Source: Phoronis australis (Eukaryota; Animalia; Phoronida). From it: a DNA stretch of 64,000 bases. The position numbers and the translations under genes were made by a program. A model generated the notes under the pieces. It worked only from the letters and a program-made list of their open reading frames with translations. It did not search any database and was not told the origin of the DNA. The stretch covers positions 72,441 to 136,440 of the forward strand of contig NMRA01000558.1 of the NCBI GenBank assembly GCA_002633005.1, read 5' to 3'. Shown here piece by piece: positions 10,256 through 53,232 of the stretch; position 1 is the stretch's first letter; every line of letters starts with the position of its first letter.

Positions 10256-13200
10256 ATGTTCCGTGCACACTTGGTTGCCGGGTTTTTGTTGGTAGTTTTG
10301 GATGTATCTCTTGCAGTGCCCTTAGAGCAGGTAAGAACGTAGAATTATTATTTGTGCATTAAAACTATTAATTGGGCCGCCACTTTCAGAGTAAAAACCG
10401 AGCAGTTCATTACGTCGTATGCCACTAATGGCTTAGTTGCTGATCCATTGGCATAATCGGAGCGGTTACATTGTACTATAGTTTCGGAACCTTGTGACAT
10501 TGGTCGTCAAGTTGCAAACGTATGCTTTGTACATTTCATGTTAATAAAATGAATATGAGCTATAGTTTACTGGTTGTAAGTGCTGAATTCATTTACTTCT
10601 TTATACATATGTTTATATTCTGTTGGCACGACATTTTTTTTCATTAAGAGTGAAAAATAAGGAGATACGCATTCAAAATTTGGAAACCCTTGTAATTTTA
10701 TTTGCCATTTTATTCGGAACGCCAGTTACCTGCCTATGCCTTATTGTATAAGAGTTTTAATAAGCATTACAACAAAAGTTAGGCGATAATAATTTGCATA
10801 CTGTGCCTTTGTTACAATGTCAAGACTTATTAGTCGGTATGTATTTTAGGCAGAGTTTAGTGACAAGAACATAGCCCTCAACTGTAAGTATTACAAGGGA
10901 ATAGCTTCAGTTCTAGGCAAATTAACTTGATACAGTGTATGTATACATTGCAATATTTCTTTTTTAATTCCTCGTACAGTCGCTGCAATCGTTGAAATCT
11001 TTGCTTTTGTACACGTAATGAACGAATGTAATTAAATAATCTTGATTAAAAGAATAGTGAACATTGTTCTGGTGAGTTTATCCAAAGCCGTCACCGTTGC
11101 CAATGGTGGGCGACAAAAGCATCCAGTAGGTAACGCTCTTTCGAGCTCTGCCACAAAGTGGATCTTGTGTTTGCAGGTGATGGCCTTCTCCTGGTGTCAA
11201 TTAAGTTGACACAAGCGCAAGTCGGTCACGCTGTCCGATTCCGCAAATGTTTAGCTGTAACATTGATTGAAATGATCCTGTTGAAGGGAGATACTTGTTT
11301 ATGTGTTATAACATTGATTAATATCCTTCTGAGGTTACATGTAATTAAATGGCGAAACATGATTATTTTACATTTTTGCCATTGTTACTGGGGAGTAAAC
11401 GCTACACAATGTAGTTTCAAGACATGCTAGAATGTCGAAGAACGATCCGTTCATTACTTCGTAAGAACACGCGGGGAAAAACAAAATGGCGGCCACTGTA
11501 ATGATTGGTGAGCCATGTTCAAATGTTTTGTTATGGACTGAATTCAGTGTTTGTGTTCCATAAGTCTAGATTTTTCCGCCGCGATTGCAAGCGACTTGCG
11601 TTCTACGGACTTTAGCCCATGTGCTATCCCACAGTGCGCGTGCTTTACATGGCTTGTTGGCGCCTACCGTATACAAATGGTTGAGGATGCGGTAGAAATT
11701 ATAGTGTGCAAAACTACATGCTCTTGTTATCCTCGACTTTTTGTTATCTTGTTTACTATTGCAACACGTACATGAGTTGCCCCCACCTTGTAAACAATCA
11801 GATCATAACGGGGTGTTCCTTTTAATGTCCAAGAAGCCAAGTAACCGCCAATGGACAGTGTCACACCCCTCTCACTGTAAAAGAGTGCGGTACAGGTACA
11901 CTTGATCTGCTGTGCATGTATTTTTTTCATTGCAGTGGACGATGTAGTTATCCCTCGGAACGTAAGTACAAAAACGCTTCACCAATGGCATCCTGTCCCA
12001 ACTTCTAACGTTTCAGCAGAGCTACACACTCCTCTCGGGCAACCGAACGATTTTAAAATAACACATTGCCATTAACAGACTGTTTCATGTCATACCAAGC
12101 ACTGGGATTTGACAGTCGTGTGTACTGCCAGAATTAAACGGGCACTATTTTGATTGGAAAGTTGTATGAAGGCGAACTTTACGGTGCTGCAGCTGACAAG
12201 CAACGAGATATCTAATGCACCCGTGGCCCATCCATATTTGGGGTGAATTCTAGATAACCAATTAAGGGTAGGTGCTATAAGCTGACGTGTGTGTGTGCGT
12301 GCGTGCGTGCGTGCGTGCGTGTGTGTGTAACCATCTACTTGTTTAGTCCACGACTTTGAAGACTAGAGTGGTGAACATACACCTGTATCAGTAGGTTTAG
12401 TGTAACACATTCTGAAACTTTCATAACGTGGATTTTGAAAAGAACCACCACCAAAAAAGCCACAGCTGTGACTTTTTCGCGAATTGACAAATATTCTCGG
12501 ACAATCCTACAACTAAGTTGAGTGGAATTTAGTCATTCCTCCATCCCCAGTGGACGAAAGCACGAATCAACAGCTGGCCTTGGACTCTGTTCACACGTAC
12601 AGGTGATCCCAACTTTGTGGCGTCCTGTCACTACCGTGGCTGCAGCTCACGATGCTTCGGCGATATGACACCTTTTTAGAGCATATTTAGCAGGTAGCTT
12701 CGTTATCTCTGCGTACACGTCCCTTTTGTTACCCGACGTTAAGGATTTTTTGTCACATACATTGTATACGATAGTGTGCAAGCACCGCTTTAGCCATGGC
12801 GTGAATGGACAACGCTGCATTCTTGACACAAACAAGCCAATCCGACAGCTTTTGTCTTCAACTGGAAATCGTTGAAAAGAAACTCCAATGCTATTCGAAA
12901 GGTCATGGTGCTTGCGTCCCGGAATGCAGTAACTTCCAGGCATACGGGGAAAAGAAATGCAAGCATGAGCCATATTTGAATCCACAAATTCAAGTTGAAT
13001 TGGCCAACCCCATTAAATTCTGAAGCGTTTTTTTTTTGAGTCGTTGATGGTTTCGATGTTCTTTTTAAAGAGTAACAGAAAAATAACTTTATTACGGTGG
13101 TCATTATGGAGATGCTGGTTTTATGCGAGCAAAGAGCCCAATTCGAGTTTCATTTTAGCTAGTTTTAAGAATGCTTTTTTCCACTTTATTTCAGTTTAAA

Positions 13201-16200
13201 TTTTAATCAGAAGGATTAGCTTTTTCGAAACTGAATGCTCGTCCAACACAACTACAAAAACATGTAGCATCAAACTGAATTTGATATGAGTTTTTTAATT
13301 TAATTTATTCTTGGTGGTCCAACAACGTCTAAAATAGCCACCCTAGTGAGTGCTAGCTGCATTTTGGGTACTCACTCAACAGCCACCGTATGCAAGGAGG
13401 TTTCCACGAAAACCCCTCCCACTTTTAAAGAATTGAAAAATTAATAGTATAATAAGTTGAACACAAAAGGGTTGACTGTTACGGAAAGTTTGTATTTAAA
13501 TAATGTCTCTCTACTGACAAAACTAATCCTGTGCTCTAAATTGGTAAATGTGAAGGATTGAGCCACCGGAAAAGTGAAACATTCCACTTATAACATACAA
13601 ATGTACCTGTACCATTAAACCTCATGCGTGAATGAGGGCGCTGCGATCGGCAATACAGGTTGTAGAAAAAGTCTCACTACCTCTTTTGCGAAAGACCACC
13701 TGGGGCTATTTTTGGACGCTGACTTCTGTAAAATGAAGTTCGTCCGAACAAGCCCTCTGAAACTCCTTTGGAAATTTCCAATAACCCTTTCTCTGGGTGT
13801 GTTGTCGGCATTCGATCTCATAGTTGCTTAAAGTTTTGCCATTGTGAGTTGGTGGACGGAATCCGTTTACTTCCTGTTCGAGGCTTTATACACTTTTAAA
13901 GACATGCAATGTTAGTGCGATAATACATTTCAAACGGTTTTAGAATTTAACTGACGTAATAGCTCCTCGTATATTTATGTTTTCTAGTCGCGACTTCGTA
14001 GCGGTACTCCTCTCATCTCCAATGACTGGCCAGCCGGTATTATTCCATACGTTCTTGACAACGCCTTTAGTAAGTGTAACGCGAAGTGAACTGTAGTCGG
14101 TCATACGTTGACGATTAGTGTTAGCTGATATTTCATCAGTATTGTCGATTTACAAAACGAAAGGGCTTCAAGCAAGAGGAGTCCTGCGAATACAGTAGTA
14201 ATAACGGGTAGTTTTATGTCAACGTAAAGTTAATGAATACTATTGTAATCTTGGCATCCCCTGTACTTAACCACAGTCGTCCATTTTAGTTGTTTAATTG
14301 TGCCCCTTGACGGTTTGGCTTCATTGTCGAAGTCGGATAGCTTCCATACAATCACTAAGGCATTTAGGTGTGCTCTCCATTAAACAGGGCGAAAATTGCA
14401 TTGGACTTTTCTAATGGGCTAAAAAATCACACTCGCATGACCAGAATTTTGTCGAAAATTAAGAACTTTTGGTAAGTAATGCAAAAAGTTCATATAATTC
14501 CATCCGACGTAGCGTTAGTGTTTTCTCAGCGGCAAGAGGACTGACGTAACAATTCGCGAGACTGAAGTTTTGACATACGAAGAGTGGGCCAAAATGTGTT
14601 GCAGGTCCGTTAGAAAAATATATCTGAGCATTTATGCGCAAATACTGTACGTTACGTTACCTGTCTATTTTCCAAATCTGACGCTAACGTTTCTGTTCAC
14701 AGAAAGAAAGTTAGGTATCTCTCAATTGTAAAAGGAGTCAGTCGGTGTGTTCAATGTCTGGAAAACTGAATGAATATTCCCTGCTGGAACTACATGTATT
14801 TTATCTATCAGTGAGCAGCTCCACATGTTTTAACCTGATCACAAAACAAACCCTTAGTTGCAACACACTTAAACAACTAAAATTAAATTCACCTTCAATA
14901 CATCAATTTCTCAGTGGTTTAGTACTACGTGCACAAGTGCTTGTACAGTGTAAGCCTACTTTTGACGGTTTCAGATGCTAAGGATAGAGCTACTCTGCAG
15001 AGGGCCTTTGACCATTACCGAAGAGTCACATGTATCAACTGGGTCCCACGGACCAATCAGAGGGATTATGTTGAGTTTGTGAAACCTCCGGGTGGTGGGT
15101 ATGTATGTATTTGACATCCTGATAACAAGGGCGGATATACGCTTTCAGCCCTGGGGGTTCACTGCTCCATAGGTACATGTACCGCTTTTTTGTGCCTGGG
15201 TTGCTTATTGTTGCTTCTTCCGACTCCTCGGAAAAACATGTACCAGTAGATCCACCCCTGGAAAAATGTCGCAAAAGACGCCCACCGACTGCCCCAAAAA
15301 CTGGACGATTTAGGGAAGCATGTTTCCCTTATGCTTTACTGACAGCTGGCAAAACATTACCGTTTGCTTTGTACAGAGCGAATTTGGACGTATACAATGA
15401 CGTTACCAAGAAAATTCTGGGCGGATTAGGGGAACCATATGACTGCGTAATGTAATACGCTAAGGTTTGCTTAGATTATTACTAGGTGTCCAGGGAACGC
15501 TTTGATACTGTGATAGCTACGTACATTGATCCAAGGTTTCCTACCGTTTAGTGGTCAGATGTCCGTGTAGTTTGGAACTCAATCCGATCATTGAAGCTCT
15601 CATACCATCATTGCAGATGTAACAGTGTTCTGGGCCGAGTGGGATCTCGACAAGTAATAAATTTGCATCAGTGGTGCGTTGACTCTTATCCTGTCGTACT
15701 GCACGAGATGATGCACGCGATTGGGTTTGACCATGAGCAGACCAGACCCGACCGTGACAATTACGTGAACATCTATTGGCAGAACATTAAGGAAAGTATG
15801 TATCACCCACTAAAGCAAATATCTACTTATTCTACGCAATACCTACATGTACTAGTAGCCGATCTGGTGTTTGGTCACGGACCCTTTTACTTTTTGTGGA
15901 AAAATTTGTGAACGTTCGGTATTTCCGGATCATTGCCGGATTTCTATGGTAAAATCTTGACAATTGAAAATGGATGTGCGTCGGCGCGATCTCGCTCGCC
16001 AGATAGGCCATGTATGGTGGCTGCCCTCATATACATATACATCATGCAGGCACCCAGGGGGGACTCGGGGAGGGCTCAAACGAGCCCCCATTTGGCGGAG
16101 AGAAACAAAATCACCGGAAAAAGGAAGTACCAAACTTAGGTGAATGCACAAGTCATACACTGTAGCTCTGAAAGTACCTCGTGAATCTTAGTAAAAGGTC

Positions 16201-19200
16201 CAGATTCTCAAAAATTCGAGCACCCCCCCCCATTTTTAGACTGAGCGAGCGCGTACATGTATACATGTAAGTAGCCACCATACGCTGCCCAACTTCCTCG
16301 CATACCAGAAAATTATCTACCGTGTCAAAGCTATTCCCGCAAGAAGCACTTTTCAGCTTTGACATTCCTCACAATGTGAGTATTTACCTGAGACAGATTA
16401 CACGCTGCAATCTGTCTTTACTCATGGTCTGGGGTGGAATTTATTACCCGCTTGTATTTGTGCGATACCACATCAGTTGTCAGGTGTACGTGAGCGTTGT
16501 TTTTAGGCTAAACGGCAGTATTCGGGTGTTTTGTGTTGGCGTATCTGTCGCTATTACGACTAGATTTGGATCCTTAGAATTGAATACAAATGTGCAGTCA
16601 CACCAAATTTTCAAAAACTGCAGGGGCAAGTTAGCACTTGAAATGCTTACAAAATTATATGTTTTGGTGGGCTCGAACAACGGTTGCACCCACGGAATGC
16701 TAAGAAGAATTATTATTGATCAGGTGCTAAGTCAGGTAATAATTTTCGAAGTGCTTACATGTAGTACCTTACAACGGTACGTAAATCTGGCCTAATTATT
16801 ATTACTATATCTAATTTTGACATTTTCATTTTGTTTTCACTGGGTCCAAAACGTCCGCATGACGTTATACTAAAGCGAATTATGCTTTGCGTGACTATTA
16901 AAACTTTCGAGTTAAAGGCGTATTTGCATACCCCTAACTACTAATGTATAACAGGAAATAAACGACAATGCTATTAGAGCATCATCTATGCTAAACAAAG
17001 TGAAGTTGTATTCATTGATAACAAGTAAAAGTGAAAACAAAAAATCCACATGGGTGACCTTTGCACTATTGACGTTCCTTAGGGGCTCACATAGCCCGCA
17101 TCAGGCAGTGTTATTCCCAACGCCATGTCACGATACTTACTGGACACGGTTGAGTAGCTTACGTCGGATCATTTTCGACTCAAATCTTGTTTTTAAAAAC
17201 ATAATAAGGCAGAATGGAACAAAGTGTCATAACAGAGTGCTCAATTCACATCACAGTGCATGACACAAGATCTATCAAGTAAAAGCTACCACTTACTTCA
17301 GCCTGTATGCTTCATCCTTCCTATTGAGTGACATTATATTTTAGCATTGATGGCCTGCCCGAGAATAGTCTCGAACAGTGAATGTCATGATCAAGAGCCA
17401 GCTTGAAATACATGTACATCTATAGCGTTCGCAATCCAACCGTTCTTATAGTTCAGTACCACTCACCACAATAGAAACCATTGCACTCGACCTTTTACTA
17501 AGATGCCATCGGTCACGCGAGCATGCCTTGTTACTAAAATTTAACGAAAAAGAATACGTTAATACGATACGTTAATAGCAAAACAACGTCATCATTAAGG
17601 TTATCAAATTTTATTTCGAGTAATCGGTCAAGACGAGTTCTCAAAAATGTTGTTGCAGTTTTCTAAAATATTTTTGTTTTCGTTTAGTGGAAGATTAGAA
17701 TTTTTCATGGAACTTATTAACCCTAATCTTTTAAAAACAACCTCTTATAGATTCCTTATAGCAATTTGGGGAACAGTGGTGCACAAAGCATAGTATCTGA
17801 AAGTTTCATATCACCCCCACTAAACAATTTCTGAGATATGATGTTCTGAAGTTATCCAAATTTGGATATTTTTCTAGGATCCCACATAACCTTAAATACA
17901 GCCGTCTTTGTCCTAATTGTTCAGATTGTCAACTGGAAATGTCTCCTGGGCTCTGTTTACAGGCGATAAGGGTTTGTTCAATATAAATCAAAGATCGTGG
18001 ACGTATGGCACTCGGTATGATTACTACAGCATCATGCATTATACGGCCTATGCAGGCAGTAAGAATAAGCAGATGACTATGACGCCGAAAGATGGTACCG
18101 ATCCTAACGTGCTAGGCAACGCGAAGGATTTGTCTGCCATCGATATTTACCGAATCAAAGCCATGTACAACTGTGATGGAAATAACGACATGCGTCCAAG
18201 ATACAAAGCAGGTACGGCATGTTAGCTCGTCCATTACATTCATTGTTGGTATTAAGTTGTGGACCGGTGCCAATCATTCTAATGAGAATTAATACAGCCG
18301 GCACCCATCAGTGCTGGCAGTCTTATCGCCCATTTAACATTGAACTCTCCTCTTTTGCAGAGGTAGAAGAATACAATACATGACTGTCATAATTTTCAAA
18401 CTATCAATAAATTGACGAGGGAAGCACAATCAGCCCTAAAATTTGCCGCTTTTGCCAATTCCTTGGTGTCATAATTGTAACTGAAAGGCACATATTTAAG
18501 GTTGCCTGCATTAGAATGTAAATCCAATTTCATAGACTAATATGGAAGTGCAACAGTGATTAGTCCATTGGAAGAAGCAGCAAATATGGTTGCCTCAAGT
18601 GTCGCATTGTAAGTTAAGCCTTTTAATGTGAGTGATGCTAAGTTGTTTTAGGACAGATCTATTACACGATCTTGTTTCCGTCAGCGACTGGTTTTTCAAC
18701 AATGCTTATTAATAAGAGGAAATGATTTTTCTGAAACTTTCATCCCACCAAGTTGGATTCAGGTTACTGAAGTCACTTCGGTTTTGGTTTCACAGAATGA
18801 TTTTTCATACCTACTGATATACAAGCACAACATAGGCCTATCTTCTCTTTATTCATCGCGTTTGCAACCATAATTGAGTTTCGTGACAGATCTACTATTG
18901 TACTGCAGTCCAAGATCAATGTGAAGATGTTGGAATTTGCTGACGGTGTAGCTGTTGACTTCTTCAGATCCAAGTTGTGTTGACAAAGACCCAAACTGCA
19001 ATAAACTGGCACGCTACACGTATCCATCCCAGTGTGAGACTAGCACTAGCTACATGGTGCATAACTGTGGACGATCTTGTCAAGTGTGTGGTACGTACAA
19101 GTAGAAGGCATTATTCTTGCTAAATGCATGCACAAAGAAGAGTCCTGCTTCTTGCAGAGTTCTTGCCAGTTGTTCGGTTTAAAGACGAGGAGAACTTTCG

Positions 19201-19584
19201 TTGCTTCATTACTAGCTCCAAGTGTAAGTCTGATGGAGTTAAACCAGTTTGTCCAAATCAAGCAACAAATGTTTTAGAATTCAAAATATCTATCTAATTT
19301 CCATTGAAATTACTGTAATGTGCCGGGATTTTGCAATCGGTTTGCTGGTTTCAGTTCATTGGTAAACACTTTTTTTCTTTAAAGGTCCAAAAGTTGGATG
19401 TTACCGCGATATGCCAGGAGCGTATTTCGTTCCCAAGCCGACGGCAAAGCACTGTAAGAGATACTGCTATCTGAAAGGCTACAAGTACGCCGGCTTTAAG
19501 GGTGGCAACTCCTGCGGCTGTTCGTCCAAGCTTGGCAGCAAATCATGGTTATGCCGCAACGGCATCGATGTGTATTACGCATAG
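10256..19584 (+). CDS. Astacin-like metalloendopeptidase 1 (signal-pro-astacin-ShK-WSC-like), 363 aa; exons 10256-10330, 10850-10883, 11936-11961, 13988-14069, 14975-15098, 15617-15795, 17963-18211, 18968-19090, 19385-19584
   Basis: All introns are GT-AG and the exons sum to 1092 nt with an open frame. Motifs: signal MFRAHLVAGFLLVVLDVSLA, zinc motif HEMMHAIGFDHEQTRPDRD, Met-turn SIMHY, four astacin Cys, ShK CVDKDPNC...C...CGRSCQVC, and WSC-like GCY...CKRYC..GYKYAG...CGC...C...VY. AATAAA at 19667. Confidence 0.93.
12286..12328. repeat. (GT)n/(GTGC)n microsatellite
   Basis: gtgtgtgtgtgcgtgcgtgcgtgcgtgcgtgcgtgtgtgtgt seen directly. Confidence 0.9.
12660..12943 (-). pseudogene. Probable THAP-domain relic in intron 3 of astacin 1
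   Basis: MPGSYCIPGRKHHDLSNSIGVSFQRFPVEDK resembles the THAP N-terminus (C..PGC...GVSFHRFP.D). The second Cys and the CS.HF motif are degraded. Confidence 0.45.
16043..16253. mobile_element. CATGCGCGCACCCAG-family MITE, 5-bp TSD (tacat)
   Basis: tacat|catgcaggcacccaggg...gggctcaaacgagccc...ctcaaaaattcgagc.ccc...tttttagactgagcgagcgcg|tacat. Collinear with 44728-45014. Confidence 0.65.
16732..16856 (+). repeat. Dispersed repeat, copy 2 (see 7384-7500)
   Basis: Collinear similarity to 7384-7500. Confidence 0.6.
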
Positions 19585-19666
19585 ACACCAGATATCAGGT
19601 GGCACAGTTTTACAACATCCAGATTGTCTACATTCTTGTGTAATATAGAATCGTATGAATTACAAA

Positions 19667-19672
19667 AATAAA
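19667..19672 (+). terminator. Putative polyadenylation signal, astacin 1
   Basis: AATAAA about 83 nt after the stop codon. Confidence 0.6.
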
Positions 19673-21245: not shown

Positions 21246-21272
21246 NNNNNNNNNNNNNNNNNNNNNNNNNNN
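21246..21272. other. Assembly gap (N run) inside a poly-C tract
   Basis: Run of n flanked by C homopolymers. Confidence 0.95.
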
Positions 21273-36500: not shown

Positions 36501-38439
36501 TGTACATGTATATGATGCCAGACACCTTAAAACATGCACAGGACTGACCCTCGCAATCTCCAGTGGATTATTGAGCTGAATCCATAGAACGGAATTTTGT
36601 TGAACCGGATTTGCCCAGTAAGTGTCTAGGTTTCTTTGGCTCTACCTTAACTGGACGTATCAGATGCTCCCTCTATTGCTTTCCAGAATATAAAGGCTAT
36701 TTTGACATCTTCAAAGGATCTTGGACCTATGGTACAAAATACGATTACACCAGTGTTATGCATTATACTGCTTACGCCGGAAGTAAGAACAGGCGGATGA
36801 CCATGACACCCAAAGATGGCACTGATCCTAATGTAATGGGAAACGCAAAAGATCTGTCAATTGCCGACATATATAGAATCAAAGTGATGTATAATTGTGA
36901 TGGGCTCAAACAGTATGAACTACGACTAAAATACAATCCAGGTAAAGTCAATTTCTTGCTCGGAAGGACCATTAATTTAATCACCTCAGAAACATCTGGA
37001 ACTGATATACTGGGACCGAGAATCTTTGTCTCAAGCTGTTGACGATTTGATATAATTTCGTGAACGGTGATTACACACGTACTCTCATGTTACATCGAGC
37101 GTTTGAAGTTTTTAAATGTTGCCTTAGTTGACGGCAGTCAACAGGATTATTTACTGGCCCGTTATTTTGACTTTTCAGGCTAGCAAGTGATAATACTATT
37201 ACATATACACAATAATAATTCCTTCATAACTACAGGCGTACTTGGATTTGGTTGTCATGTCAATCATTGGGTTAACTTAACACCAAAAGACCAGCTCCAA
37301 ATGACATCTTGCAATTCTGATGATTTAAACTGTAGATCCTAAATGCGTTGATAAGGATGCCAACTGCCACATGTGGGCTCGCCAACGATACCCTTCCGAA
37401 TGTGAAAAAAGTCCTGGTTACATGATGAGATATTGCGAAAGAGCGTGTCGGGTTTGTGGTAGGTGCAATTTTTAAATTAAAATTCCTCTTCCGTGAAGTA
37501 AAACACTAATTGATTATATTGTTTACTTGCTACTAATACACTGTACTTGTATAATTAGATGATTGCTAACGCTTCTGTCTTCTGATTGGCTGTGACGCCG
37601 TGCGATACAGTGTATAGAGCGTTATATTTGATCAACCTGGCAGTGGAATGTAGCTTTTCATTAATATCGCTCGGCATCATATGTCGGTGTACCTGAACGG
37701 CCCACGAAGTGAGATGGCAACGTCAGTACATCAACAAGCGAAACAAATCATCATTGGTTGTGTATTAAGTACAGATATGAACAGATCATGAAATTATTGT
37801 TTGCCCAAATTAGAATTTGCAAACATAGAATAGACCGATCCCTCGTGTGCATCAGATTTGGACCTTACGGTGATGAGAGCAGCGTTTCCTCGGTCCATGT
37901 GACCTGATGTCACCCTCGTGATCAGTCCACATCTGTATATTATTTCGAAAACTTTCGAGAATAGTGTCAAATATTTCAGCCTCCTAAACTGGTCATTCTG
38001 AAATATAGATTTTACAATAGGAAGCGTATTTTTTACTATATACATTAGCTCGTCGTCCAACGTTTAATTTTTGTTCTTATTTTTATTTTCATCTGATTCA
38101 AAGCTGCTTTGTACAATTCTAGGTATATTCTGCATCAGTAAAATTGGTATGTATCTCAGGGCTATTGGCTTCGACGCAAAGCAAGATGATTTGATTATAT
38201 ATCGTATAAAAAGATAGTTAACTCAACTTTTTGCAGGTCCCAAGCTCGGTTGTTACACTGTGATTTATTATGCGTCTCCCACCGTATCCAAGGATTCGGC
38301 CAATGCTTGCAAGAGGCACTGCTATATGGAAGGGTACAAATATGCCGGTTTCAAGAATGGCAATTTGTGTTCTTGCTCCGACATGCTTGGACCAAAAACA
38401 AACTCTTGTCGGAACAACCTTGAAGTATTCTTAGTTTAG
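33590..38439 (+). CDS. Astacin-like metalloendopeptidase 3 (signal-pro-astacin-ShK-WSC-like), 363 aa; exons 33590-33655, 33843-33879, 34092-34114, 34417-34498, 35073-35196, 35975-36153, 36687-36941, 37336-37458, 38237-38439
   Basis: GT-AG introns and a 1092-nt open frame. Motifs: signal MLVYIGFLSIAAQVSLA, HEMMHVIGFHHEQTRPDRD, SVMHY, ShK CVDKDANC...CERACRVC, and WSC-like GCY...CKRHC..GYKYAG...CSC. AATAAA at 38544. Confidence 0.93.
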
Positions 38440-38543: not shown

Positions 38544-38549
38544 AATAAA
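38544..38549 (+). terminator. Putative polyadenylation signal, astacin 3
   Basis: AATAAA about 105 nt after the stop codon. Confidence 0.6.
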
Positions 38550-41348: not shown

Positions 41349-41432
41349 ATGCACGTGCTTGTATAATGCAGAAAATATGCACGCGCTTGCATAATACAAA
41401 AATCATGCAAGCGCTTGTATAATGCAGAAATT
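41349..41432. repeat. Minisatellite, 3 x 28 bp
   Basis: atgcacgtgcttgtataatgcagaaaat / atgcacgcgcttgcataatacaaaaatc / atgcaagcgcttgtataatgcagaaatt. Confidence 0.8.
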
Positions 41433-41819: not shown

Positions 41820-44800
41820 ATGGGGCCTCGTATCAAGCAGATCTGCATGACTTTGGTCATAACTGTACTCCAGCTTTGCCTGGCGGTGCAGGCATCTCAG
41901 GTAATTGTTTTTATTTCTCGTTCTTTCTCTTCCCTGTCATAGGTCATCCAGCGTCAAACTCCGCCAAGCACTGTCATATTTGAACCCTTGTCATTTCCAT
42001 TCTAAATGCTAACTGGTTTTGATGTACATTTGTACGTTGGCCTGTAATGTGTCATATGATGACCAGTTAGAGTAAAACAAAACTGCTATAACACAGGCAG
42101 CCAGCTGCTCAAGGGCGTGTTGAAAGGGACGCCTGATGTCAGCTACTAAATCTTAAATATCTTCAGTTTGAAAGCATAATGAATTCACTTGGCTGTTTCT
42201 ATGACAATGCTTAGTTACAAACACAGTTTTTGCCCGGCCACGAATAGAAATATTGGTCCGTTTTTTGTTTGAAATCACTCAGCTTCATCCCGACAGTTCT
42301 CATCCAGAATTCTTTGGTGGCAACGTAATAGAGGACACTAATTGCAAGACTCATGTTTAATTTTCATGTTCGAATGTTGTAACTAACCTTCTGAATAAAG
42401 AAATGTTGATTCTTGCTAATTAAAATATGAACGTTTACGTCACAACGCACTGGGCTACTGAGAAGTCGGAACATTTTAATAAAAAACATGAAAGCACGTT
42501 TGTTTCCAAAAGGTTGATATTAACAAAAGTGGTCTACCAGTGCAGCAATGAATGAATCCAATCCCTACATAAGACCAACAGCAACAGGCCGACCGACTCC
42601 TGGCTACTCATTTACACTCAGTGTACCACGGATGCTCATCAGTGCTTTCCCACTAGAGATAAAGCTTTGCTTTTAGCGTAGTCTCGGTGTGTGGGAAAGG
42701 TTAATTCCTGCATTTTAAAATGTTTAAGCGAAACTTCGTTGAAAATAGTAAGCTTTGAAAGCGAAGTTTCGGTTCTAACCGAAACTTCGGTGTCATTGAC
42801 GAGAAAGCTTAGAGCGAAGCTTGTGTGGGGTTATCGGTAGAGGTCGCACCAACAATATACGATCACGCCAGACACGGTGAGACATACTGCCAGCATTGTC
42901 CCCAAGTCTCAATATGGCGCTGATCGGTTTAGCCATTTGAGAATTGGCTACTGGGAATTGAAATGTGTCAGAATTCTAATTCATTTTTACGGAAATCGGC
43001 GGAATACCATGAGTTTTGAAATTTTCTGCAGTTTTATATAAAATGAAAACAACGGTATATTGTTGCAAAAAATGATGTATTTTGGTTCCATTATACAATT
43101 AATGAAAAGAAGTGAAAATGAGTACGCAAACAACCTTTATTTCAAGCAATAATCAAAACAATGCCTTCTGCTTCATGAACAACGCCTGCGAAAATAATTA
43201 AAATCTGCCTATGCTTTAATGACGTCAAGGCTGCGACCAATCATTGCGCAGAAGATACATATGTACATGTAATTCGCATCCATAACTAAGCCTCAAAAGG
43301 CCTAAACTGGTCAGCGCCATCTTGAGGTTTCAGGACGAGGCTCATATACGTCAAGCTAGAGTATTATTTTAATAAACATTGGTAAGTGGCGGGATAACAA
43401 TTTACAGGTAGCTTTGAACCCACAACTCAATATTCGTTTGAGAGTACGAATGAACTGCTTGGCGTTTAGTACGGTGTCTAGCGATAACTTCGATATCGCT
43501 GTCTATTGGGAAAGGTAAGCGAAGTGTCGGCGAAGCTTCCCGTAAACCGAAGTTTCCGTAAGGAGAAATCAATATATGACAGTGAAATCTCAAATGTGAG
43601 GGTAAACTTATCTCTCTGTAATTTTCATATGTAATCTACCACAAACAAAATCACCCAAGGCTAGAAGTTTTATGACTTGTTTTTTTATTACAGTTTATAA
43701 GCTAAAGTGCCGTTTGGCCACGCACCGACATTAATGTAGTCGTCCTAACCAGTTCGTGATCACTATCAACAACCATGGTGATGAAAGCCTGTGATGCGGC
43801 TCCTTGCCAATGAGCTTCTGGCGCAATACACTGGCCATTCCTCATACATGTATTTCAGACGTTTTCAACAACCGTTTTGTGTAATAGAAAAGGATGTTAT
43901 CGACAATGATAATTCCGTTGGACGGAGTCATTTATTCACATCTCGTGCTGTTTATTTCAGAAACTTCCGGACGTAAAAGACCAAGCGAGGACACCAGACT
44001 GTGAGTGCAGATGTCAACAAATTTTATTAATATGGTCATAAACCTTGCACATTTGATATTTAAGTACTGGTGAATGTTTTACATGTATTTATTTTCATCT
44101 CGTCATTTTGGAATGGAACCCTAGCTACTAATCATCGATTTTAAGCATGTTTAACACTTCCCGAGTTTGAAGCTCAAACGCAATTCATTCCAGTGAAAAT
44201 TTTCTGTTACTTCGGTTTGATAAGCTTGATACTTTTTGATGTTCAGTCTGTTTCTTTAAATTCCTTTGAAATTTGCATTGGTCATGAAATGAAATATGTT
44301 AATTGATTCTTTACAGTGCTGGATGACATAGTCAGGCCAAAGGTAAGTTGCGCTCACAAATTTCAATTTAGCTGTGGCTTGGACTATCCGAGGTTCTACT
44401 AGATTAATGCAATTCCACTAAAACTTACGTAGCACAATTTTTTGTCTTGTTCAATCAGGACATCTAATCTCAAATTGAACCAAGGATGCGCTCCATAGAA
44501 GCAATAATTCTGCGAGTAAAGCTAGGATGAACACGTGATTTTCTTGTGTTACATAACGATACATACTCTGTAGCTGTGACTTGCGTGATCTCGCTTTTGC
44601 GACAAGAAACTGTTCTACGGAAAACAGCTCTGTCACGTCGTATAACGTGGGCGACTCGTAACTGAACAAAACTTAGTAATGCAAACTAGATAAGCCTCAA
44701 TGAATTTTCTTTTCTGACATCACGATACATGCGCGTGCTCTCAGGGGAGGGGTTCTTGGGAGGGGCTCCAACGAGCCCCTCCCCCGGGCTCCAACGAGCC

Positions 44801-47800
44801 CCTCCCCCCTCCTATTTGGCGAAATGGGCAAAAAGGTCCTCCTCCGAAAATCAAAAAAAGAATAAAACGGGACAAAAGTCCATTAAAAAAGACCGGAAGT
44901 ACCTAAATTTGGCGAATGCACAATTCATCGCTGTGAACTTTCACACGTTTTAAGTAAATGGTCCACATTCTCAAAAATTCGAGCCCCCTATTTTTTAGGC
45001 TGGGTGCGCGCATGCGATATCTGATCATTGAGGCATGGAAACAGAACACGCCTTTGTCATATTTGAAATATGCGAGCGCAGTGCAAGTTTTTGTTTTCGT
45101 GTTTTACAAAGAGACTTCTTAAATATTTATCCATTTTATAACTTGTGTGTTATGAACGACCGCTGGACTGGTTGCAAAAAGAAAATATTAATGAACATTT
45201 CAAGGACGAAAGATGAATTGCCAATCGGCTGATGCACTTCCACAGGCCTATTTATTTTGCCTAATATTCCTCGAGCGCATTAAAAATGAATGACAGCCCA
45301 CCTGTGAGGTTGGAGACAAGTCGTATTGAATGCGTACAAGATTTGCGACAGCGTTGTTGGTTGCTTGGCGGAGTTACGGAAGCTCTTTCTGTTCCGGTCT
45401 GTGCATGCGCGAAATCAGCAGTCATAACCGATTAGGCCTACTTGAGTGATAGGTTTATGCTTCGCAAAGTTTCCACAAGGTCATCACTTGAATCATAAAT
45501 TTGGGACTTCCTGGTTGCCGCAGCATAGTAATGGTATCGATTGAAGTCACATACCAGTAATCGCGGTTTTTGTTTCAACAACGTAGTTTCAGAATTCGAT
45601 TATAATTTTTTTGGTGTGTGATTACTGATGTAAACACAGATGGCTTGGCCAGGTTACTTTTTGGTTTGGTGATTTTGAACTCAGGCTTCAAAGACAACAA
45701 AGAACTTTAGGAAAGTGAGCCAAAAAACAGATTTGCCGCGGGATGAAGTTTTAAGCATACCTTTTACAATTACTCTTAGGGATGATGCATATCCGGTGAA
45801 ACCGTGATATAAAAAGCATTGAAAGCTTTACCTAGCAGCAAAAAGCATCAGAAGCAACAGCAGCGGCAGCAGCAGCAACAGCAGTAGCAGCAGCATTTCA
45901 ATAAAAGATCATACCAAACCACAGATGACTATAGATGATCTTTTGGACGTTTAAAGGGAAGTGTTGTTGCTTTAAGAAGAGACGAGATCACAGTAATGGC
46001 TCTTCAGGTGGAGTGATCTTGTTTTTACAAACACGCGTCACATGCGCCAGGTGTATATTTGCACGAGTGTAAATTTTCATTTGCCCAACCTCTGAAGTTG
46101 GTGCAATTATGCACACGAGTGTAGCATTACATCTAGGTGTACTTGCGTTAATGTGTCAAACATACACACCGTACGTAAATATGCACTCGGGTGTAAATGC
46201 CATCATGTGAACGGGGTTTTAAATACATGTACATGAGTAGGCAGGCGAAAACTTGTGAAAATATTATTTTAAAGAAATCTTGGCGAATCCATTTCTTGGA
46301 GATGCTAACGTGAGAGTTATTCATTTTGAATATTGCAAGAACCTTCAGTAAAAATCGTCGGATTCATTACTTTTGAATTACAGACGAAATAAGAACTTTC
46401 ATTCCAATACAGTTTTCAAATGCTCCGCTCATATTAATATGTAAGCGCGCATGCGCTCAAAAAAGTCGGGCTGCAGCATGAAAACAACCATTGTTTAGTT
46501 TCTAACGATGGTCAAAGGAGGCGTGGTTTGCTGTGTGGCGGAGCTGACACATCGTTTTTTTGAAATGTCCAACTAAAGGAAAAATGCTTCGACATCAACA
46601 GAAATTCAAAACTTTGCAAAGAAACCGTAAAATTACTTGGTGAACAGTTTGACTTCTGTTTCAGTGGCAGACAATCACTTTGAATAATGCAGTTCAGTCT
46701 GTCTTGCACGTCTTATTCCACTTTAATGTGTAGCAGAAGCTCTCCAGTGTATCACATTTCTAATTATCAACTCTTTGATTGCAGCCGTCACGTCTGCGCA
46801 GTGGCCTTGCGGATTTCAACAAAGACTGGCCTGGCGGCTATATTCCTTTCGTGTTTGATGGCAGCTTAAGTAGGTGTACCCATTGGATACACTTGATTGA
46901 CTTCGCCGGGTCCACCGGGTCAGTCGGCTTAGACATCTTATTGGTTCGTGGTGACTTCTGGCAAACTGGCCAATCAGAAGTCTAAGTCGTTTGACACGCT
47001 GAAACCGGCGAAGTCAATCAAGTGCATCCGGTTATGTAATGACCTAAGCTTGTGACAATGCCTCTCTCTCCCTAAATAGCTGGAAGTTAACCTAACAATA
47101 TTCTAAATTCGCTGCCCATGTATCGTGTACATAGAATTGTACTAACAACAAATCATCATATGCTTGGATTTTGACTTTGTCGTGATCAGATGACGGCATA
47201 CAGTATATGACCCATCTCACCAAGTATCATTTTACTGACTATTAATCACGTGCTGCTTACGATCCATAGTCACTGCGAATTTCCAGCTACGTTTATGTTA
47301 TATCGTGAAAGTCATTATACTCTCGTTAAGGTTGTGTTCATTTTCATAATATGCTGTAGGGAGTATTCAGCAGTTCCCTCGTTGTAATTCCAGATGCTCA
47401 CGATCGCGCTAAGGTACAGCGGGCGATGGACCACTATCGAAGAATCACATGTATAAACTGGGTCCAAAGAACCAACCAAAGGCATTACGTTTTGATAAAG
47501 AAACCACCGGATCAAACGTACGTCTGTTAATTCTTATGTGGAATAAAATGTTTCTCACCTAAAATAGTAAGACGTGCATTTATATGGAACGTATTGGTGG
47601 CAGGGTAGATGTCGCTCACCCTAAACGGGTTTGTCTTTACTTATACGACACCTCAAAATATATTTTGAGTCCTCAGCCATGGCAGCACAGCAGGATCAGT
47701 TAAAGGGGCGGCCCCCTAGTATAACTACTCACGTGCAGATGTAGGTGCTTCAATATGCAATGTTTCGGGTACACGTGCATCAGCATGAACCTCAATGAAA

Positions 47801-50800
47801 CCCACAATATCTCACAACGTTTTTTTTCGCGGCTAAGGAAAAACGTTGAGTCATGTCCAATCTCCCGTTCGCGTTACCTGGAATAGCAATGTGCAATTGT
47901 TTTATTCAAAAGTCGTTACTTGTAAGGCCATGTACACGCCGCCGGGACAAAACATTCCGATGGCATCAACAGACCAATATGTAGCAACTGGAAAGCTTAC
48001 GTGATAACTCTAACGCTGTTTTTAAAATTTGAAAAGTACATATTTGCCGCCTTTTTAAATCAGGGCAATTAGGGAAATTAGAGAACAGGGTTTCTTCAGC
48101 AGCGCAGCTGAGCAACACGCATTTACTTAGTCACAGTCTGGCGTAGGCACGCTTAAAGCGTAGGATTGACAAAAAGCCAAATGTTACCTCATGATTTGCG
48201 AGAACTTGCCAAATTTGTGAACCTCTCAGCATAATGTTTTACTTAAAAAGATACCAAGATAGCAACTTACAGATGTAAACTACGACATTAGACTACCTAA
48301 ATCTTTGAAACAAGGCAACGCCTTGCCAATCCTCAAACGTGAGAGCACGTTCCAATAGTGACAAAGTCGGTTCAGTAAGAGTGGTGAACTCCTGCTATTT
48401 ATGGCGATGGCGGAGGAGAAAGGATATTGCTCTACCACAAGATCCAGCTTGAGAAAGTGTTTAACTGTGTAATCCCCCCTTTTGACTATATACATGTAGA
48501 TGTATAATGGGATGGACTAATACTACAAAACAAATTGTAAGTGAAATCACTAGAAGAGGATATAGTATCCTTTATACGAAGTAATAAGAAATTGTCGTTG
48601 AAAGCTAAATCGGCTTTGTCGAAAGCCCAGATATCAAATTGAAATAACTGAAGTGGAAGTCGACAATTGAAGCTGTGTAGTCTAAGATACAAACAGCTGC
48701 CATTGAACATCTCACGGCAATAGCCCTATTTTAGAGTAAACTTAGAGAATAAAGACACAAGTGTGCAGTGTTTAAAAAGACTTCAAGATTGGTTTCAACC
48801 AAAAACACGAACCAAATCTAAGGTCTTTTGGTGACGCTGCAAAATATTACTTCTCTTATCTTCAAACGCGGTTTACAAAACTCTGTTAAATGTATATAGC
48901 CTTTAAACAATTCCCTGATTTTCAAATAGTTACCGCTCTTCCACATATCAATTCTAAGTCAACATTTTCTATTTCAGATGTAACAGCTACGTTGGTAAAC
49001 TTGGTATTGGTAAGCAGGATCTTAATCTCGCCCAATGGTGTCTGGACTCGTTCCCAGCGATATTGCACGAGATGATGCATTGCATCGGATTCGAGCACGA
49101 GCAGTCTAGGCCAGACAGAGATAACCACATCAACATTTACTGGGAGAACATCGGTGAAAGTGAGTGGATCAAGTCTGCTTTTCATTATAATTATAATAGT
49201 TCCAGTTAACTGGATGTTTACGATATTTGTAAGTGAGAGAGGGAAGAAAACCCAATGGTCCGAAGTCATACATGGGGTCGGATGTCTGAATACACTGGTA
49301 AGACTGTGGGGCGTAGGGCAATGAGTCTGATATAACATGCCCGCATTTTGAGAACCAGTTTGATGCCCGTTATTTAGTGGGGGAAACTGGTTCTCAAAAT
49401 TCGGGCGCATTATATCAGACCATTAAGGGGCGTAGGATTATACAGCATTCACATGCTGTTAGATCGAATGCAAATACCCGATTTCAGATCGGTCTTTTTT
49501 ATCATACATGTATTCCCCCAAATTATATGCCATATCTACCCTCGTAACTCCTGGTCACACGAGAGACGAAATAAAGTGGAATGCCGTTGGGATGAAAATT
49601 CTTCGCGAATTCCTGGATATTTAAAGTTTGTTCTAAAATCGTGACTGGACTCTGAAACATTCAAGTCTGTTCTTTGCGGTTGTCCCGATAGTTAGGCACA
49701 TGCTCAAAGACATTCGAAATGTATTCTGACTGCAGTCTCAATATTCTTAACAACTGTATTCGAAATATTGTGATTTGAGAGAAAAATCGAACGACAAGTC
49801 CCTTCAAATCGTGTAAGAATATTCCCAGGAGCACCTCGAATGTGCCGAAATAGGCCTACATCTCGAGTGTATTTCGTTTGATGCTAGAACGTAGTGAGGT
49901 ATTAAAATTGTTCAACTAGATTGCGTCCGAATGCCTTTAGTGTACCTCGACTATCCCTGAAATGAATTTCGAATGCTCCGATTGACCTTCGAATGAGACC
50001 AAGATCTAATTCCCGGCGAAGACCGCAGTCGCTGAAGTGGGGAGTAGAGGCGATAGCCTCGTCCTTGTATCGGTCAACAATAGCTAGGCAAACTCCAGGG
50101 ATGATGAGACTGAAGCTTCCAGGTGTCAGCACAGGTTCTTTCTTCCTTATTTGCCTGACGTATGGTCAAGTCTGGTACTCTGTTTTCCTTGTTTCTGCTC
50201 TTTCACACCTCTTTCAAAGAAGTCTGGCTTGGGAGTTGCAGTGAGTAGAAAAGAAGTATAGTCCGGGGGTCCATACTCTAAAACTGGTGAAAATGATATA
50301 TTCTACATCTACCTCATTATTTGGCTATTCCTGTGAAATTCTTGATACACAGTACAGGGCATTCTGGTTACATTCTAAACGCGTTGATACGCCGTAAAAT
50401 GTAACTATTTCGTAAAATGTAACAATGACGTAAAATGTAACACGTTGATAGGCTTCTCCTAAAATGTAACAAGTTGTTACATTTTAAGAGAGGCCTAGCA
50501 ACATAAAATGTAACAATGACATAAAATGCAACAGTTGTTACATTTTACGAAATTGTTACGTTTTACGGCGTATCAACGCATACAAGAATATTCTTAGCAT
50601 TCGAGCTGTAGTCTCTCAGAAAATTTTTAGACGTTCGAAAATATGTTTGGAAGTTATCCGGGAGCTTCCGTCCAGGAGCATTCTGAATACATGTACATCT
50701 TAGACGAATTTATGCAGCCGTTAGAGGCACATTGCAACTAGACATCGGTTGTTATTCGGACAACAGTCGACCTGCTCTCGCTAGACATTCGAAGCGAAAT

Positions 50801-53231
50801 CTGAGTATTCCAGTCCTCCAGCATTATACGTATACCCGAAACGTTTCAAATGCATACATGGCATGCGCATAAATACATTATCAAGGGCACTAAAAATAAT
50901 TGAACAGCATTCCTACAAAGTTCTTCAAATTTTGATCTCTATGAAATGTCCGAAAGATAATTGCTCGACTTCGAAACACTGTGACTGGTACTGGTATACC
51001 GTCGGTAAACTTGCCTCAGAGAGAGATATAAAAAGACATTTTAACACAGTTTAAAAGTCTTCTGTTTCGAAGGTAAAGAAATCTATGTTGATTAAACCTA
51101 AAGCACAGTCCCCTTTGTCATAAGACTTTAAAATAAGTGCACAGAATGTCCTGTGAAACTACCGGCCAAGTGCAGAAGGAAATAGAGTTCAAAATTGCTA
51201 AGAACGTCACCGAAAGACGTGGAAAGTACCTCAAATATTTAGGTTTGCCACGTTTGCCATTGTTTCGATGTCATACCTTAGCAAACTGCGTAACTTAGTA
51301 CGCGAAGCAGCATGCGTTTCGCGTTCTACAATATGTTGCCATCCCTATCTCGTTTTTTCTATCGAGTCTTTTATCCTTCATCTCTGTTAGACAAAGCATG
51401 GTACAATTTCTAGAAAATAATGTTGGTAACGGGCTCAGGTAAAATATCTGACGTGCTCATCCAAACAGGTTTATCCTTTTGACGCCAGATAATGCAGTTC
51501 CACGAGACTGTCTAGCTCAAGCGATTTTCAAAGCCTTCAAGGTGTCTGACAGAACTGTCTGCCGATTAAAGGGCAGACTCTTAAAATCTGCAAGTTTTTC
51601 CTGTATTTCAATAATTTCAGAAAGCAGGTGGTTATTTCAAAAAGTGGCTGGTTCCTGGACGTACGGTACTACATATGACTACAGAAGCGTTATGCACTAC
51701 ACTGCGTATGCCGGGAGTAAGAATGGTAGGATGACCATGACACCAAAAGATGGCACTGATCCAAATATACTGGGTCAAGCAAAAGATTTGTCCGTTACTG
51801 ACTACTACCGCATCAAGCTAATGTACAACTGTGATGGAAACTATGACGGAAGAAATCGTTACACCCCAGGTGAGCAAACATTTCTTACCTTAGAGCTACA
51901 GCTAGTAGACTAGACACGTTTGTTTTAACGTCGACAAACACATTTTTGTTGTCCTCTTAGATGTGTAGGCCCACCGTGATTCATGTACAGTTCCCTTTAG
52001 TTCTTGACAATTGGGAGGTTAATTATGACCATTCTCATTGCTGTGACCCTTAGCTTTTGCATCACTAAAAATGGAATTTCGACGGACGTTTCAGTTGTAC
52101 CCGCATTTTGATTTTCTCAACGGCACAATCAGCGCCACCACTGCTTTCTGAGCTATCACCTGGAAAAGTCCTTCCTTGCTCTAAAATGGTTTCAAGGTAC
52201 ATGCAACCGAAGGTTTAGCAGAGTATGATCGGATAGTTTATTAAGGCAAATGTCGAGCCAACATACGACGTTCCTTCACATACATGTGTTTAAGCTTAGA
52301 TTACAGGGTGGAGTATACATTGTGACGGCGGATTCATGATAAAAGATGAGAGTGCCGAGACTTTCCAGTATACCGCGCGCAGGTCTTTGGCTTGACTACT
52401 GGCATGCTTACATGGATCTATTACCATGCCATGGTTTTGCCAGTGTCAGTTATTTATTCCAGATCCCAACTGTAAGGACAAGCATGCCAACTGTAACACG
52501 TGGGCCCGCAAACATTACCCGTCTGAATGTGAGAAGAGTGCTGCATACATGATGACCAACTGTGAAAGATCTTGTCGAGTTTGTGGTAAGTCGAAATCCG
52601 CACGCTCTTTTACTCCAACTTATGAACATCACAAAGCATATTCGAACAGTAGCCTTTCACGAGAGTACACGGTTGTTTAATATGTGAACCAATGAGTTCT
52701 CGGCCCAGACTGTTCGACTCGGCGGAACACTTAATTTAAAGCGTCCATATACAACATGTACAAACTCCTCTTCGGCATCACAAAGACCGTTTTTGTGGTT
52801 TGGACGACTTACCACATGACATCGGTCTCAAATTGTTCCATAGCCAAGTTGTAGGTGCTTTCAGAGGTTCGAAAGGACTGGCAGTTTACCGTTGCTTGTG
52901 AGACAACTTTGAAGGCTTAATTACAACACGGCTTGTCATGACGTGTTATTCTATGACCCAGCATGGTCCCGAACAATAGCAAATTTTCAGTAACTGTACG
53001 GTCGCCAATGGTTAGTTTTTCTTTGTAGGCCCTAAACTCGGATGCTACACCGCTATGTATTACGCATCTACAGCAGTGTATAAGAACTCAGCCAACGAGT
53101 GCAAGAGACACTGTTATTTGGACGGATACAAATACGCAGGCTACAAGACAAATCGCTACTGCACATGCTCCGATCACATAGGAGGTCGGACGAACAGCTG
53201 TAGGAATAGCTATGAAGTCTATAACTCGTAG
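41820..53231 (+). CDS. Astacin-like metalloendopeptidase 4 (signal-pro-astacin-ShK-WSC-like), 370 aa; exons 41820-41900, 43961-44000, 44317-44342, 46785-46869, 47394-47517, 48978-49159, 51621-51869, 52463-52585, 53029-53231
   Basis: GT-AG introns and a 1113-nt open frame. Motifs: signal MGPRIKQICMTLVITVLQLCLAVQA, HEMMHCIGFEHEQSRPDRD, SVMHY, ShK CKDKHANC...CERSCRVC, and WSC-like GCY...CKRHC..GYKYAG...CTC. Intron phases match genes 1-3. Confidence 0.92.
42645..43570. mobile_element. Inverted copy of the cgaagcttcg-family element, interrupted by a second TIR element (~42892-43342)
   Basis: ttatcggtagaggtc (42831-42845) is the reverse complement of gacctctaccgataa at ~22723. The inner element ends are agcattgtccccaagtctcaatatggcgctgatcggtttag ... 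ctaaactggtcagcgccatcttgaggtttcaggacgaggct. Confidence 0.55.
44728..45014. mobile_element. CATGCGCGCACCCAG-family MITE, 5-bp TSD (cgata)
   Basis: cgata|catgcgcgtgctctcaggg ... ttttaggctgggtgcgcgcatg|cgata. Confidence 0.75.
45834..45895. repeat. Imperfect (CAG/AGC)n microsatellite
   Basis: agcaacagcagcggcagcagcagcaacagcagtagcagcagca, intronic. Confidence 0.8.
46885..47029. mobile_element. Short fold-back element / hairpin MITE
   Basis: ggatacacttgattgacttcgccgg ... ccggcgaagtcaatcaagtgcatcc, plus inner arms cttagac.tct.attgg / ccaatcagaagtctaag. Confidence 0.75.
50381..50579. mobile_element. Fold-back MITE built from taaaatgtaac repeats
   Basis: TIRs gcgttgatacgccgtaaaa / ttttacggcgtatcaacgc, with about 9 direct and inverted copies of taaaatgtaac. 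Confidence 0.8.
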
Positions 53232-53232
53232 T

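What the first reader, a model, noticed from the sequence alone, without database searches (positions are those of the whole stretch)
10256..53231. Four-gene tandem cluster of secreted astacin-ShK-mini-WSC proteases: a possible glycan-targeted protease system
Seen: four intact paralogs share the same 9-exon structure (intron phases 0,1,0,1,2,1,1,1). Each ends in one ShK exon followed by a ~66-aa Cys/Tyr/Lys-rich exon. Established: astacin+ShK is common in cnidarians, nematodes and lophotrochozoans, and WSC domains are extracellular modules that bind carbohydrate (beta-glucan) in several fungal proteins. I do not recall astacin-ShK-WSC as a described architecture. Inference: these are secreted proteases whose tail anchors them to a polysaccharide-containing substrate (microbial or prey surface, mucus, egg coat, cuticle) for defence, venom/mucus or digestion.
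Basis: partly seen in the sequence, partly recalled or inferred. Interest (0 to 1): 0.8.

Follow-up and report, generated by a model that had tools for sequence, protein, structure and literature searches.

The report
Astacin proteases with swappable mini-WSC tails
Four neighbouring animal genes, two of them seen spliced in RNA as modelled, encode zinc proteases predicted to be secreted that end in a shortened WSC module which likely anchors them to sugar-rich surfaces, and one gene is a hybrid carrying one neighbour's enzyme half and the other neighbour's tail.

Summary
Four intact 9-exon genes (363-370 aa; all GT-AG; phases 0,1,0,1,2,1,1,1) encode signal peptide, short pro-segment, astacin, ShK and a 65-66 aa WSC-type module. 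RNA reads confirm all 8 junctions of G4 and the 6 of G1 that were covered; G2 and G3 are nearly silent in these runs. Exon 9 scores below Pfam's WSC cut-off, but both tail types are predicted to fold like Wsc1/Kremen (Z 8.1-8.8) without the fourth disulfide loop. I found no astacin-WSC protein or paper, but my searches were shallow for animals; WSC on other proteases and PAN-fold modules on astacins are known. Glycan binding is untested, and beta-glucan specificity is doubtful. Verdict: new variant of ShKT-astacins, moderate interest.

The parts
10256..19584 (+). G1, astacin-ShK-miniWSC, 363 aa, type-A tail. Exons 10256-10330, 10850-10883, 11936-11961, 13988-14069, 14975-15098, 15617-15795, 17963-18211, 18968-19090, 19385-19584
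   Evidence: junctions of exons 3-9 read in X1 and X2
21849..31318 (+). G2, 367 aa, hybrid (G3-type exons 1-7, G1-type exons 8-9). Exons 21849-21929, 25667-25703, 26078-26100, 26507-26588, 27889-28012, 28252-28430, 29241-29495, 30023-30145, 31119-31318
   Evidence: low RNA depth and no junction shown
33590..38439 (+). G3, 363 aa, type-B tail. Exons 33590-33655, 33843-33879, 34092-34114, 34417-34498, 35073-35196, 35975-36153, 36687-36941, 37336-37458, 38237-38439
   Evidence: exon 8-9 junction in 3 reads
41820..53231 (+). G4, 370 aa, type-B tail, the most expressed copy. Exons 41820-41900, 43961-44000, 44317-44342, 46785-46869, 47394-47517, 48978-49159, 51621-51869, 52463-52585, 53029-53231
   Evidence: 8 of 8 junctions read in X1 and X2
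15617..15795 (+). Exon 6 of G1 (equivalents 28252-28430, 35975-36153, 48978-49159): zinc motif HExxHxxGxxH followed by ExxRxDRD
17963..18211 (+). Exon 7 of G1 (equivalents 29241-29495, 36687-36941, 51621-51869): Met-turn S[IV]MHY, end of catalytic domain, short linker
18968..19090 (+). Exon 8 of G1 (equivalents 30023-30145, 37336-37458, 52463-52585): ShK domain, 6 Cys, phase 1-1 exon, dyad Lys absent
19385..19584 (+). Exon 9 of G1 (equivalents 31119-31318, 38237-38439, 53029-53231): six-cysteine WSC module with stop codon
29470..30022 (+). Crossover zone of G2: last codons of exon 7 through intron 7 (29496-30022)
   Evidence: max chi-square between exon 7 codons 76 and 77 of the alignment, 0-based

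Best explanation
These are four intact tandem astacin zinc-protease genes whose products are predicted to be secreted as zymogens and likely use a basic ShK plus six-cysteine WSC tail to cling to sugar-rich, acidic extracellular material (mucus, food or microbial surface) in a gut or surface epithelium, while the catalytic domain cuts nearby protein. Shown: gene structure, catalytic motifs, splicing of G4 and G1, presence in two RNA runs and absence from a third, and the G2 mosaic. Predicted: WSC/PAN fold with three disulfides. Inferred: signal cleavage; a 29-32 residue pro-segment whose Asp (exon 3, DD[IV]) blocks the zinc; activation by cleavage after the invariant SRLR/TRLR to give an N-terminal Ser; the anchor role; the tissue. 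G2 most likely arose by one unequal crossover between G3 and G1 at intron 7, giving G1-[G3 head/G1 tail]-G3, and has been kept under purifying selection since.
For: All astacin motifs intact in 4 of 4 (definitions in PMC9848320). Tail fold: top matches Wsc1 7pz2 Z 8.8, rmsd 1.7 A over 65-66 residues; Kremen1 Z 8.1-8.7; next come PAN/apple domains, including the glycan-binding MIC4 and SML-2 (Z 6.6-8.3). Exon 9 pI 8.8-9.5 with 6-11 Tyr; catalytic part pI about 9. A single WSC domain attaches a fungal oxidase to xylan and chitin/beta-glucan without changing its catalysis (PMC11611005 passages). ShKT-astacins are mostly expressed in barrier epithelia or gut (PMC9848320 passage). Among the 89 proteins hit by the exon-9 profile, WSC rides on GH16, GH71, LPMO AA14 and on three other protease classes, one of them (P0083, subtilase) with six-Cys-type repeats. 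Mosaic: informative sites 43 vs 9 for G2+G3 in exons 1-7 and 49 vs 6 for G1+G2 in exons 8-9 (Fisher p 1e-14; 0 of 2000 permutations reached the max chi-square); dN/dS 0.10 and 0.07 on the two halves. Non-coding flanks agree.
Against: No binding or activity data. Single WSC domains lack an obvious glycan pocket, Wsc1 has not been shown to bind glycan, SiWsc3 needs three domains, and Kremen1's WSC contacts a protein (PMC9024836 Discussion). By a cysteine-anchored register (my inference) only one of the 11 Wsc1 cluster aromatics (Y107) has an aromatic counterpart in all four tails, and three lie in the deleted loop. Foldseek alone gave E only 1.2e-2, and Z near 8 is at the edge of what the tool calls common. 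Tissues of X1-X3 are not given. The signal peptide was judged by hydrophobicity only.
Confidence: 0.5

Rival explanations
1. The tail is a protein-binding exosite (as in Kremen1, factor XI apple or HGF N domains) that selects a protein substrate, partner or inhibitor in the animal's own matrix, so the enzymes remodel tissue, egg coat or shell matrix rather than follow a glycan.
For: Kremen1 ties with Wsc1 as top fold match; its WSC contacts Dkk1. CUB/EGF tails of other astacins are exosites. The fungal aromatic clusters are mostly not kept.
Against: The basic, Tyr-rich surface and the many WSC fusions to carbohydrate-active enzymes fit polysaccharide or polyanion binding at least as well.
Confidence: 0.3
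2. The genes are venom or defensive-secretion enzymes in which ShK acts on ion channels and the WSC tail holds the enzyme on prey or predator tissue.
For: ShK-astacins are duplicated in salivary glands of the vampire snail (PMC6409789 passages); the nearest solved ShK domains are MMP23 and BmK1 (E 0.06-0.09); expression is restricted to 2 of 3 raw-read runs.
Against: The position of the dyad Lys (Lys23/Tyr24 in BmK1, PMC9699480) holds Ser, Ser, Gly or Ala, with only the Tyr kept; the same paper on Cumia warns that the dyad is neither necessary nor sufficient. Strong purifying selection on the pairs that can be measured. Moderate expression: median 11 and 7 junction reads per million for G4.
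Confidence: 0.1
3. The mini-WSC has no specific ligand and only stabilises the enzyme or adds positive charge.
For: It has lost a loop and disulfide described as strictly conserved in Wsc-like domains.
Against: 27 of 66 columns are invariant across four paralogs whose synonymous sites are mostly saturated; both tail types model at pLDDT above 90.
Confidence: 0.1

Closest known systems
ShKT-astacins, MEROPS M12A (e.g. Hydra HAS-7/HMP1, mollusc M12-ShK such as Cumia CreM12-ShK and pearl oyster Pf-ALMP, nematode NAS)
   Same: Signal peptide, pro-segment, catalytic domain with all family motifs, C-terminal ShK; lineage-specific duplication.
   Different: An added WSC-type last exon; pro-segment about 29-32 residues (review range 34-486) without FxGDI; catalytic domain only 35-41% identical to the best of 74 database astacins and on a long branch of its own.
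WSC domain, Pfam PF01822 (yeast Wsc1 7PZ2, Kremen1 5FWS, Fusarium glyoxal oxidase 9N3U)
   Same: GCY start, helix CxxxC, YAG strand, CxC, sixth Cys and final VY-type strand; predicted PAN/apple-type fold, rmsd 1.7-2.2 A.
   Different: Six instead of eight Cys; the loop holding Wsc1 C90-C98 and the CGG motif (about 14 residues) is missing; basic where Wsc1 is acidic; single copy.
Other protease-WSC fusions: Nematostella trypsin-WSC NVJ_105271 (10.1101/645952); unnamed P0082 (trypsin), P0003 (aspartyl protease), P0083 (subtilase, six-Cys-type WSC)
   Same: A WSC module carried by a protease.
   Different: Different catalytic classes; none is an astacin and no ShK was reported in them at the thresholds used.
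Anti-Lepore-type hybrid genes of tandem clusters (recalled, not looked up)
   Same: A hybrid copy lying between its two intact parents, downstream parent's 5' half joined to the upstream parent's 3' half.
   Different: Here the break falls at a domain boundary and the hybrid is old (dS about 0.7-0.85) and conserved.

Membership tests
Astacin (M12A) | HExxHxxGxxH zinc motif | tested here: met
   4 of 4, exon 6
Astacin (M12A) | Family-specific Glu then xxRxDRD | tested here: met
   EQ[TS]RPDRD in 4 of 4
Astacin (M12A) | SxMHY Met-turn with Tyr ligand | tested here: met
   SIMHY or SVMHY in 4 of 4
Astacin (M12A) | Signal peptide | tested here: inconclusive
   Hydrophobic core (mean 2.3-2.7 over 11 residues) in exon 1 of 4 of 4; no signal-peptide predictor run
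Astacin (M12A) | Pro-segment with FxGDI aspartate switch (shared by animal members, not needed for catalysis) | tested here: inconclusive
   Literal FxGDI is absent; exon 3 keeps DD[IV] in 4 of 4 about 9-10 residues before the likely cleavage site, which may supply the Asp
Astacin (M12A) | Zinc-dependent proteolysis | not testable with these tools
   needs an assay
ShK domain (PF01549) | Six-Cys pattern above Pfam cut-off | tested here: met
   4 of 4
Kv-blocking ShK toxins | Lys-Tyr dyad | tested here: not met
   Tyr kept, Lys replaced in 4 of 4 by alignment to BmK1
WSC domain (PF01822) | Pfam gathering score 27.8 | tested here: not met
   19.5-26 bits; WSC is nevertheless the best family in 4 of 4, and 88 of 89 proteins found with the exon-9 profile carry WSC
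WSC domain (PF01822) | PAN/apple-type fold most like Wsc1/Kremen | tested here: met
   Predicted models of G1 and G4 tails, ranks 1-3 of 48161 chains
WSC domain (PF01822) | WSC-specific Cys1-Cys6 pair (Wsc1 C27-C86) | tested here: met
WSC domain (PF01822) | Cys7-Cys8 pair and CGG motif | tested here: not met
   Absent in 4 of 4 (against PMC9024836); so a shortened variant, not a canonical WSC
WSC domain (PF01822) | Carbohydrate binding (shown for a few members only) | not testable with these tools
   needs a glycan array

The most novel reading that the evidence does not exclude
The cluster is a family of pattern-seeking proteases: a minimal three-disulfide WSC module recognises foreign polysaccharide (algal, fungal or bacterial wall), the two tail types read different glycans, and unequal crossover at the domain boundary re-pairs enzyme and targeting halves, so that the array works as a small combinatorial toolkit for gut or mucosal defence.
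Probability: 0.15. Interest if true: 0.65.

Novelty: new variant of a known kind. Interest (0 to 1): 0.36.

Why it matters
It adds a domain combination that I could not find described to a family already known for shuffling tails, and supplies two handy objects: a 65-residue WSC module that is predicted to fold without its fourth disulfide, and a natural head/tail swap (G1, G2, G3) that lets one test directly whether the tail sets where or what an astacin cuts. What animal WSC domains bind is largely open; a small, single, soluble one with two natural variants is a good test case. It does not change how astacins are understood unless glycan targeting is shown.

Tried and rejected
No whole genome is held, so family size and other copies outside the window are unknown. 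Run search: no RNA holder listed; the raw-read runs offered by species label were laid instead. Exon-9 profile against longer proteins: 0 of 261 candidates passed; G4 exon 7: 0 of 8; both weak evidence by the tool's own note. Exon-9 patterns in metagenome contigs: 0 of 278 stretches confirmed. Exon-6 profile gave 74 astacins and 21 loci; none carries PF01822 in the precomputed list, and my WSC profile (305 repeats) found no domain in them, best independent E-value 0.34. None of the 89 exon-9 hits has an astacin motif or family. The ESM Atlas gave no answer. Defensin reading of exon 9 (phmmer-type hit 2e3e, E 0.2) rejected: defensins align over only about 40 residues at Z about 3. Assembly artefact for the G2 hybrid rejected: both halves differ from their parents at many synonymous sites. 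Homology of whole intergenic regions, which the crossover model predicts, was not detectable beyond the 3' UTR (z 2.0). Faster evolution of the type-A tail: 20 vs 6 lineage-specific changes (p 0.009), but not significantly different from the catalytic part's 23 vs 15 (Fisher p 0.19), so tail-specific acceleration is not shown. The tree is the quick version, 33 of 74 hits as outgroups; it cannot place the lineage. Literature searches for the architecture: astacin+WSC+ShK (3 listed of 4), astacin+'WSC domain' (2 listed of 4), 'WSC domain'+metalloprotease+ShK (1 listed of 2), astacin/helminths/WSC; none that I opened describes it (the Alternaria preprint seen as listing only). The helminth survey with over 100 astacin add-on domains (Martin-Galiano and Sotillo 2022, cited in PMC9848320) was not seen and InterPro could not be queried; either may list astacin-WSC.
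Full report
1. Observation. Six-frame translation and all-against-all comparison show four + strand paralogs. I fixed the exons by hand and checked them: nine exons each, 32 of 32 introns GT..AG, phases 0,1,0,1,2,1,1,1 in all four, no stops; products of 363, 367, 363 and 370 aa. No other paralog exon was seen in the window, and a WSC profile of my own hits only the four exon-9 frames (E 4e-10 to 1e-8; next best 0.37). No whole genome is held. Earlier notes on this genome suggest a mollusc (e1-10581269, unchecked); my data show only a spliced animal gene family.

2. Expression. Runs offered under the same species label were laid on 33500-53400 and 11500-31450. G4: 8 of 8 junctions in X1 (115-188 reads) and X2 (53-119), sense strand, and in contigs of X4; 3' ends near 53284. 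G1: 6 of 6 junctions within the stretch (8-37 and 7-24 reads); exons 1-2 were outside it. G3: one junction listed, exon 8-9, 3 reads. G2: low depth, no junction among those shown. X3 has no junction reads for any gene and covers mainly repeats, which suggests tissue- or stage-restricted expression; tissue labels are not given. Median junction reads per million: G4 11.0 and 6.8, G1 1.9 and 1.6.

3. Anatomy. Exon 1 has a hydrophobic core. Exons 2-3 and the first residues of exon 4 give a pro-segment of about 29-32 residues (24-27 after exon 1, plus about 5 in exon 1 if cleavage follows the last Ala of the LA motif; inferred), shorter than the 34-486 range in PMC9848320 (section 2.1 read) and without FxGDI; DD[IV] in exon 3 may carry the aspartate switch. 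An invariant RLR-SG follows. Exons 4-7 hold HExxHxxGxxH, ExxRxDRD and S[IV]MHY; exon 6 matches tolloid, BMP1, meprin and astacin structures. The four catalytic domains form one clade on a long branch (SH-aLRT 99, quick tree) and are 35-41% identical to their best matches among 74 database astacins: no ortholog was found. Exon 8 is an ShK domain that keeps the Tyr but not the Lys of the channel-blocking dyad (dyad positions from PMC9699480 passages).

4. Exon 9. Best Pfam family WSC in 4 of 4, below the cut-off. Its profile finds 89 proteins among 1.84 billion representatives, 88 of which carry WSC, mostly as repeats, none closely related and none an astacin. Models of G1 and G4 tails (pLDDT 90.6 and 92.7) match Wsc1 (Z 8.8, rmsd 1.7 A, all residues) and Kremen1 (Z 8.1-8.7) first, then PAN/apple domains; Foldseek ranks the same entries first at E about 0.01. 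Against the Wsc1 description (PMC9024836 passages and Discussion) the six cysteines line up with C27, C49, C53, C69, C71 and C86; the last Cys lies 7 residues before the final-strand Tyr instead of 21, so the C90-C98 loop and CGG motif are gone. Shortened WSC repeats are not unique: 17 of 384 repeats in the hit set have at most one Cys after CxC, some merely cut off, others complete, as in Siedleckia and Diplonema proteins and an unnamed subtilase.

5. The hybrid. G2 is 85-88% identical to G3 in exons 4-7 but 52-55% in exons 8-9; to G1 it is 67-71% and 85-90%. Informative sites switch sharply at the end of exon 7 (43:9 before, 6:49 after; Fisher p 1e-14; 0 of 2000 permutations). Non-coding traces agree: G2-G3 flanks of introns 3-6 reach z 2.7-6.6 on at least one side, G1-G2 intron 8 start z 8.5 and 3' UTR z 4.9; the one discordant value above 3 or near it is G1-G2 intron 4 end, z 3.0 (96 flank comparisons). 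Both halves have a similar age (dS 0.69 and 0.85) and dN/dS 0.10 and 0.07. The order G1, G3-head/G1-tail, G3 is what one unequal crossover would leave; a long gene conversion cannot be excluded.

6. Mechanism. Most likely a secreted zymogen, activated after RLR, whose basic Tyr-rich tail holds it on glycan-rich acidic material in gut or surface mucus (0.5). Support is by analogy: a single WSC anchors a fungal oxidase to xylan and chitin/beta-glucan (PMC11611005 passages), and ShKT-astacins are mostly epithelial or digestive. Against: single WSC domains lack an evident glycan pocket, Kremen1 binds protein, and the Wsc1 aromatic clusters are mostly not kept by my register. A protein exosite (0.3), venom (0.1) and a passive tail (0.1) remain.

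7. Known and new. The astacin review's text and its two held supplements do not mention WSC but list PAN, the same fold, and lectin-type modules among astacin add-ons, and cite over 100 add-on domains in helminths. About 900 of over 10,000 animal M12 proteins have ShKT (PMC6409789 passages). Trypsin-WSC is described in Nematostella (10.1101/645952 passages; its supplements are closed and might list more). PMC4877951 and PMC7150852 (passages) and 10.1101/2023.01.19.524809 (passages) do not describe the fusion. So the combination is undescribed as far as my searches reach, but it is one more case of a very common process. Earlier scan notes report no such architecture and two related, unchecked cases.

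8. Verdict. Observation confirmed; interpretation partly supported; new variant of a known kind; interest 0.36.

Noticed in passing
window 11500-13987 (G1 introns 2-3): Continuous sense-strand RNA depth of about 7-11 in X1 and X2, against about 1-3 in the purely intronic bins further on; the exon 3-4 junction has only 8 and 7 reads against 25 and 21 for exon 4-5. Intron retention or an internal start would cut the signal/pro part off from the catalytic exons in many G1 transcripts.
   Followed up: no
window 53233-53640 and 53642-54051: A 408-base direct duplication (97.6%) on either side of a single N just after the G4 stop; likely an assembly overlap.
   Followed up: partly
window 46885-47029, 49325-49420, 50381-50579: Long inverted repeats in G4 introns, MITE-like; 49324-49425 is covered by many reads with unlike flanks in all runs, so it is a common repeat.
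   Followed up: no
window 8313-8591 and 31879-32160: A 70% identical 280-base stretch lies 1.4-1.9 kb upstream of both G1 and G3 but not G2 or G4; repeat or shared regulatory piece.
   Followed up: no
P0083 (unnamed, JGI/IMG, 997 aa): Subtilase S8 with two six-cysteine-type WSC repeats: an independent protease carrying a shortened WSC.
   Followed up: partly
P0022, P0045, P0048 (Siedleckia nematoides): WSC-repeat proteins of this protist include several repeats with reduced cysteine sets.
   Followed up: no
exons 2-4 of all four genes: Very short pro-segment split over two micro-exons (34-40 and 23-26 bases) and lacking FxGDI; possibly among the shortest astacin pro-segments.
   Followed up: partly
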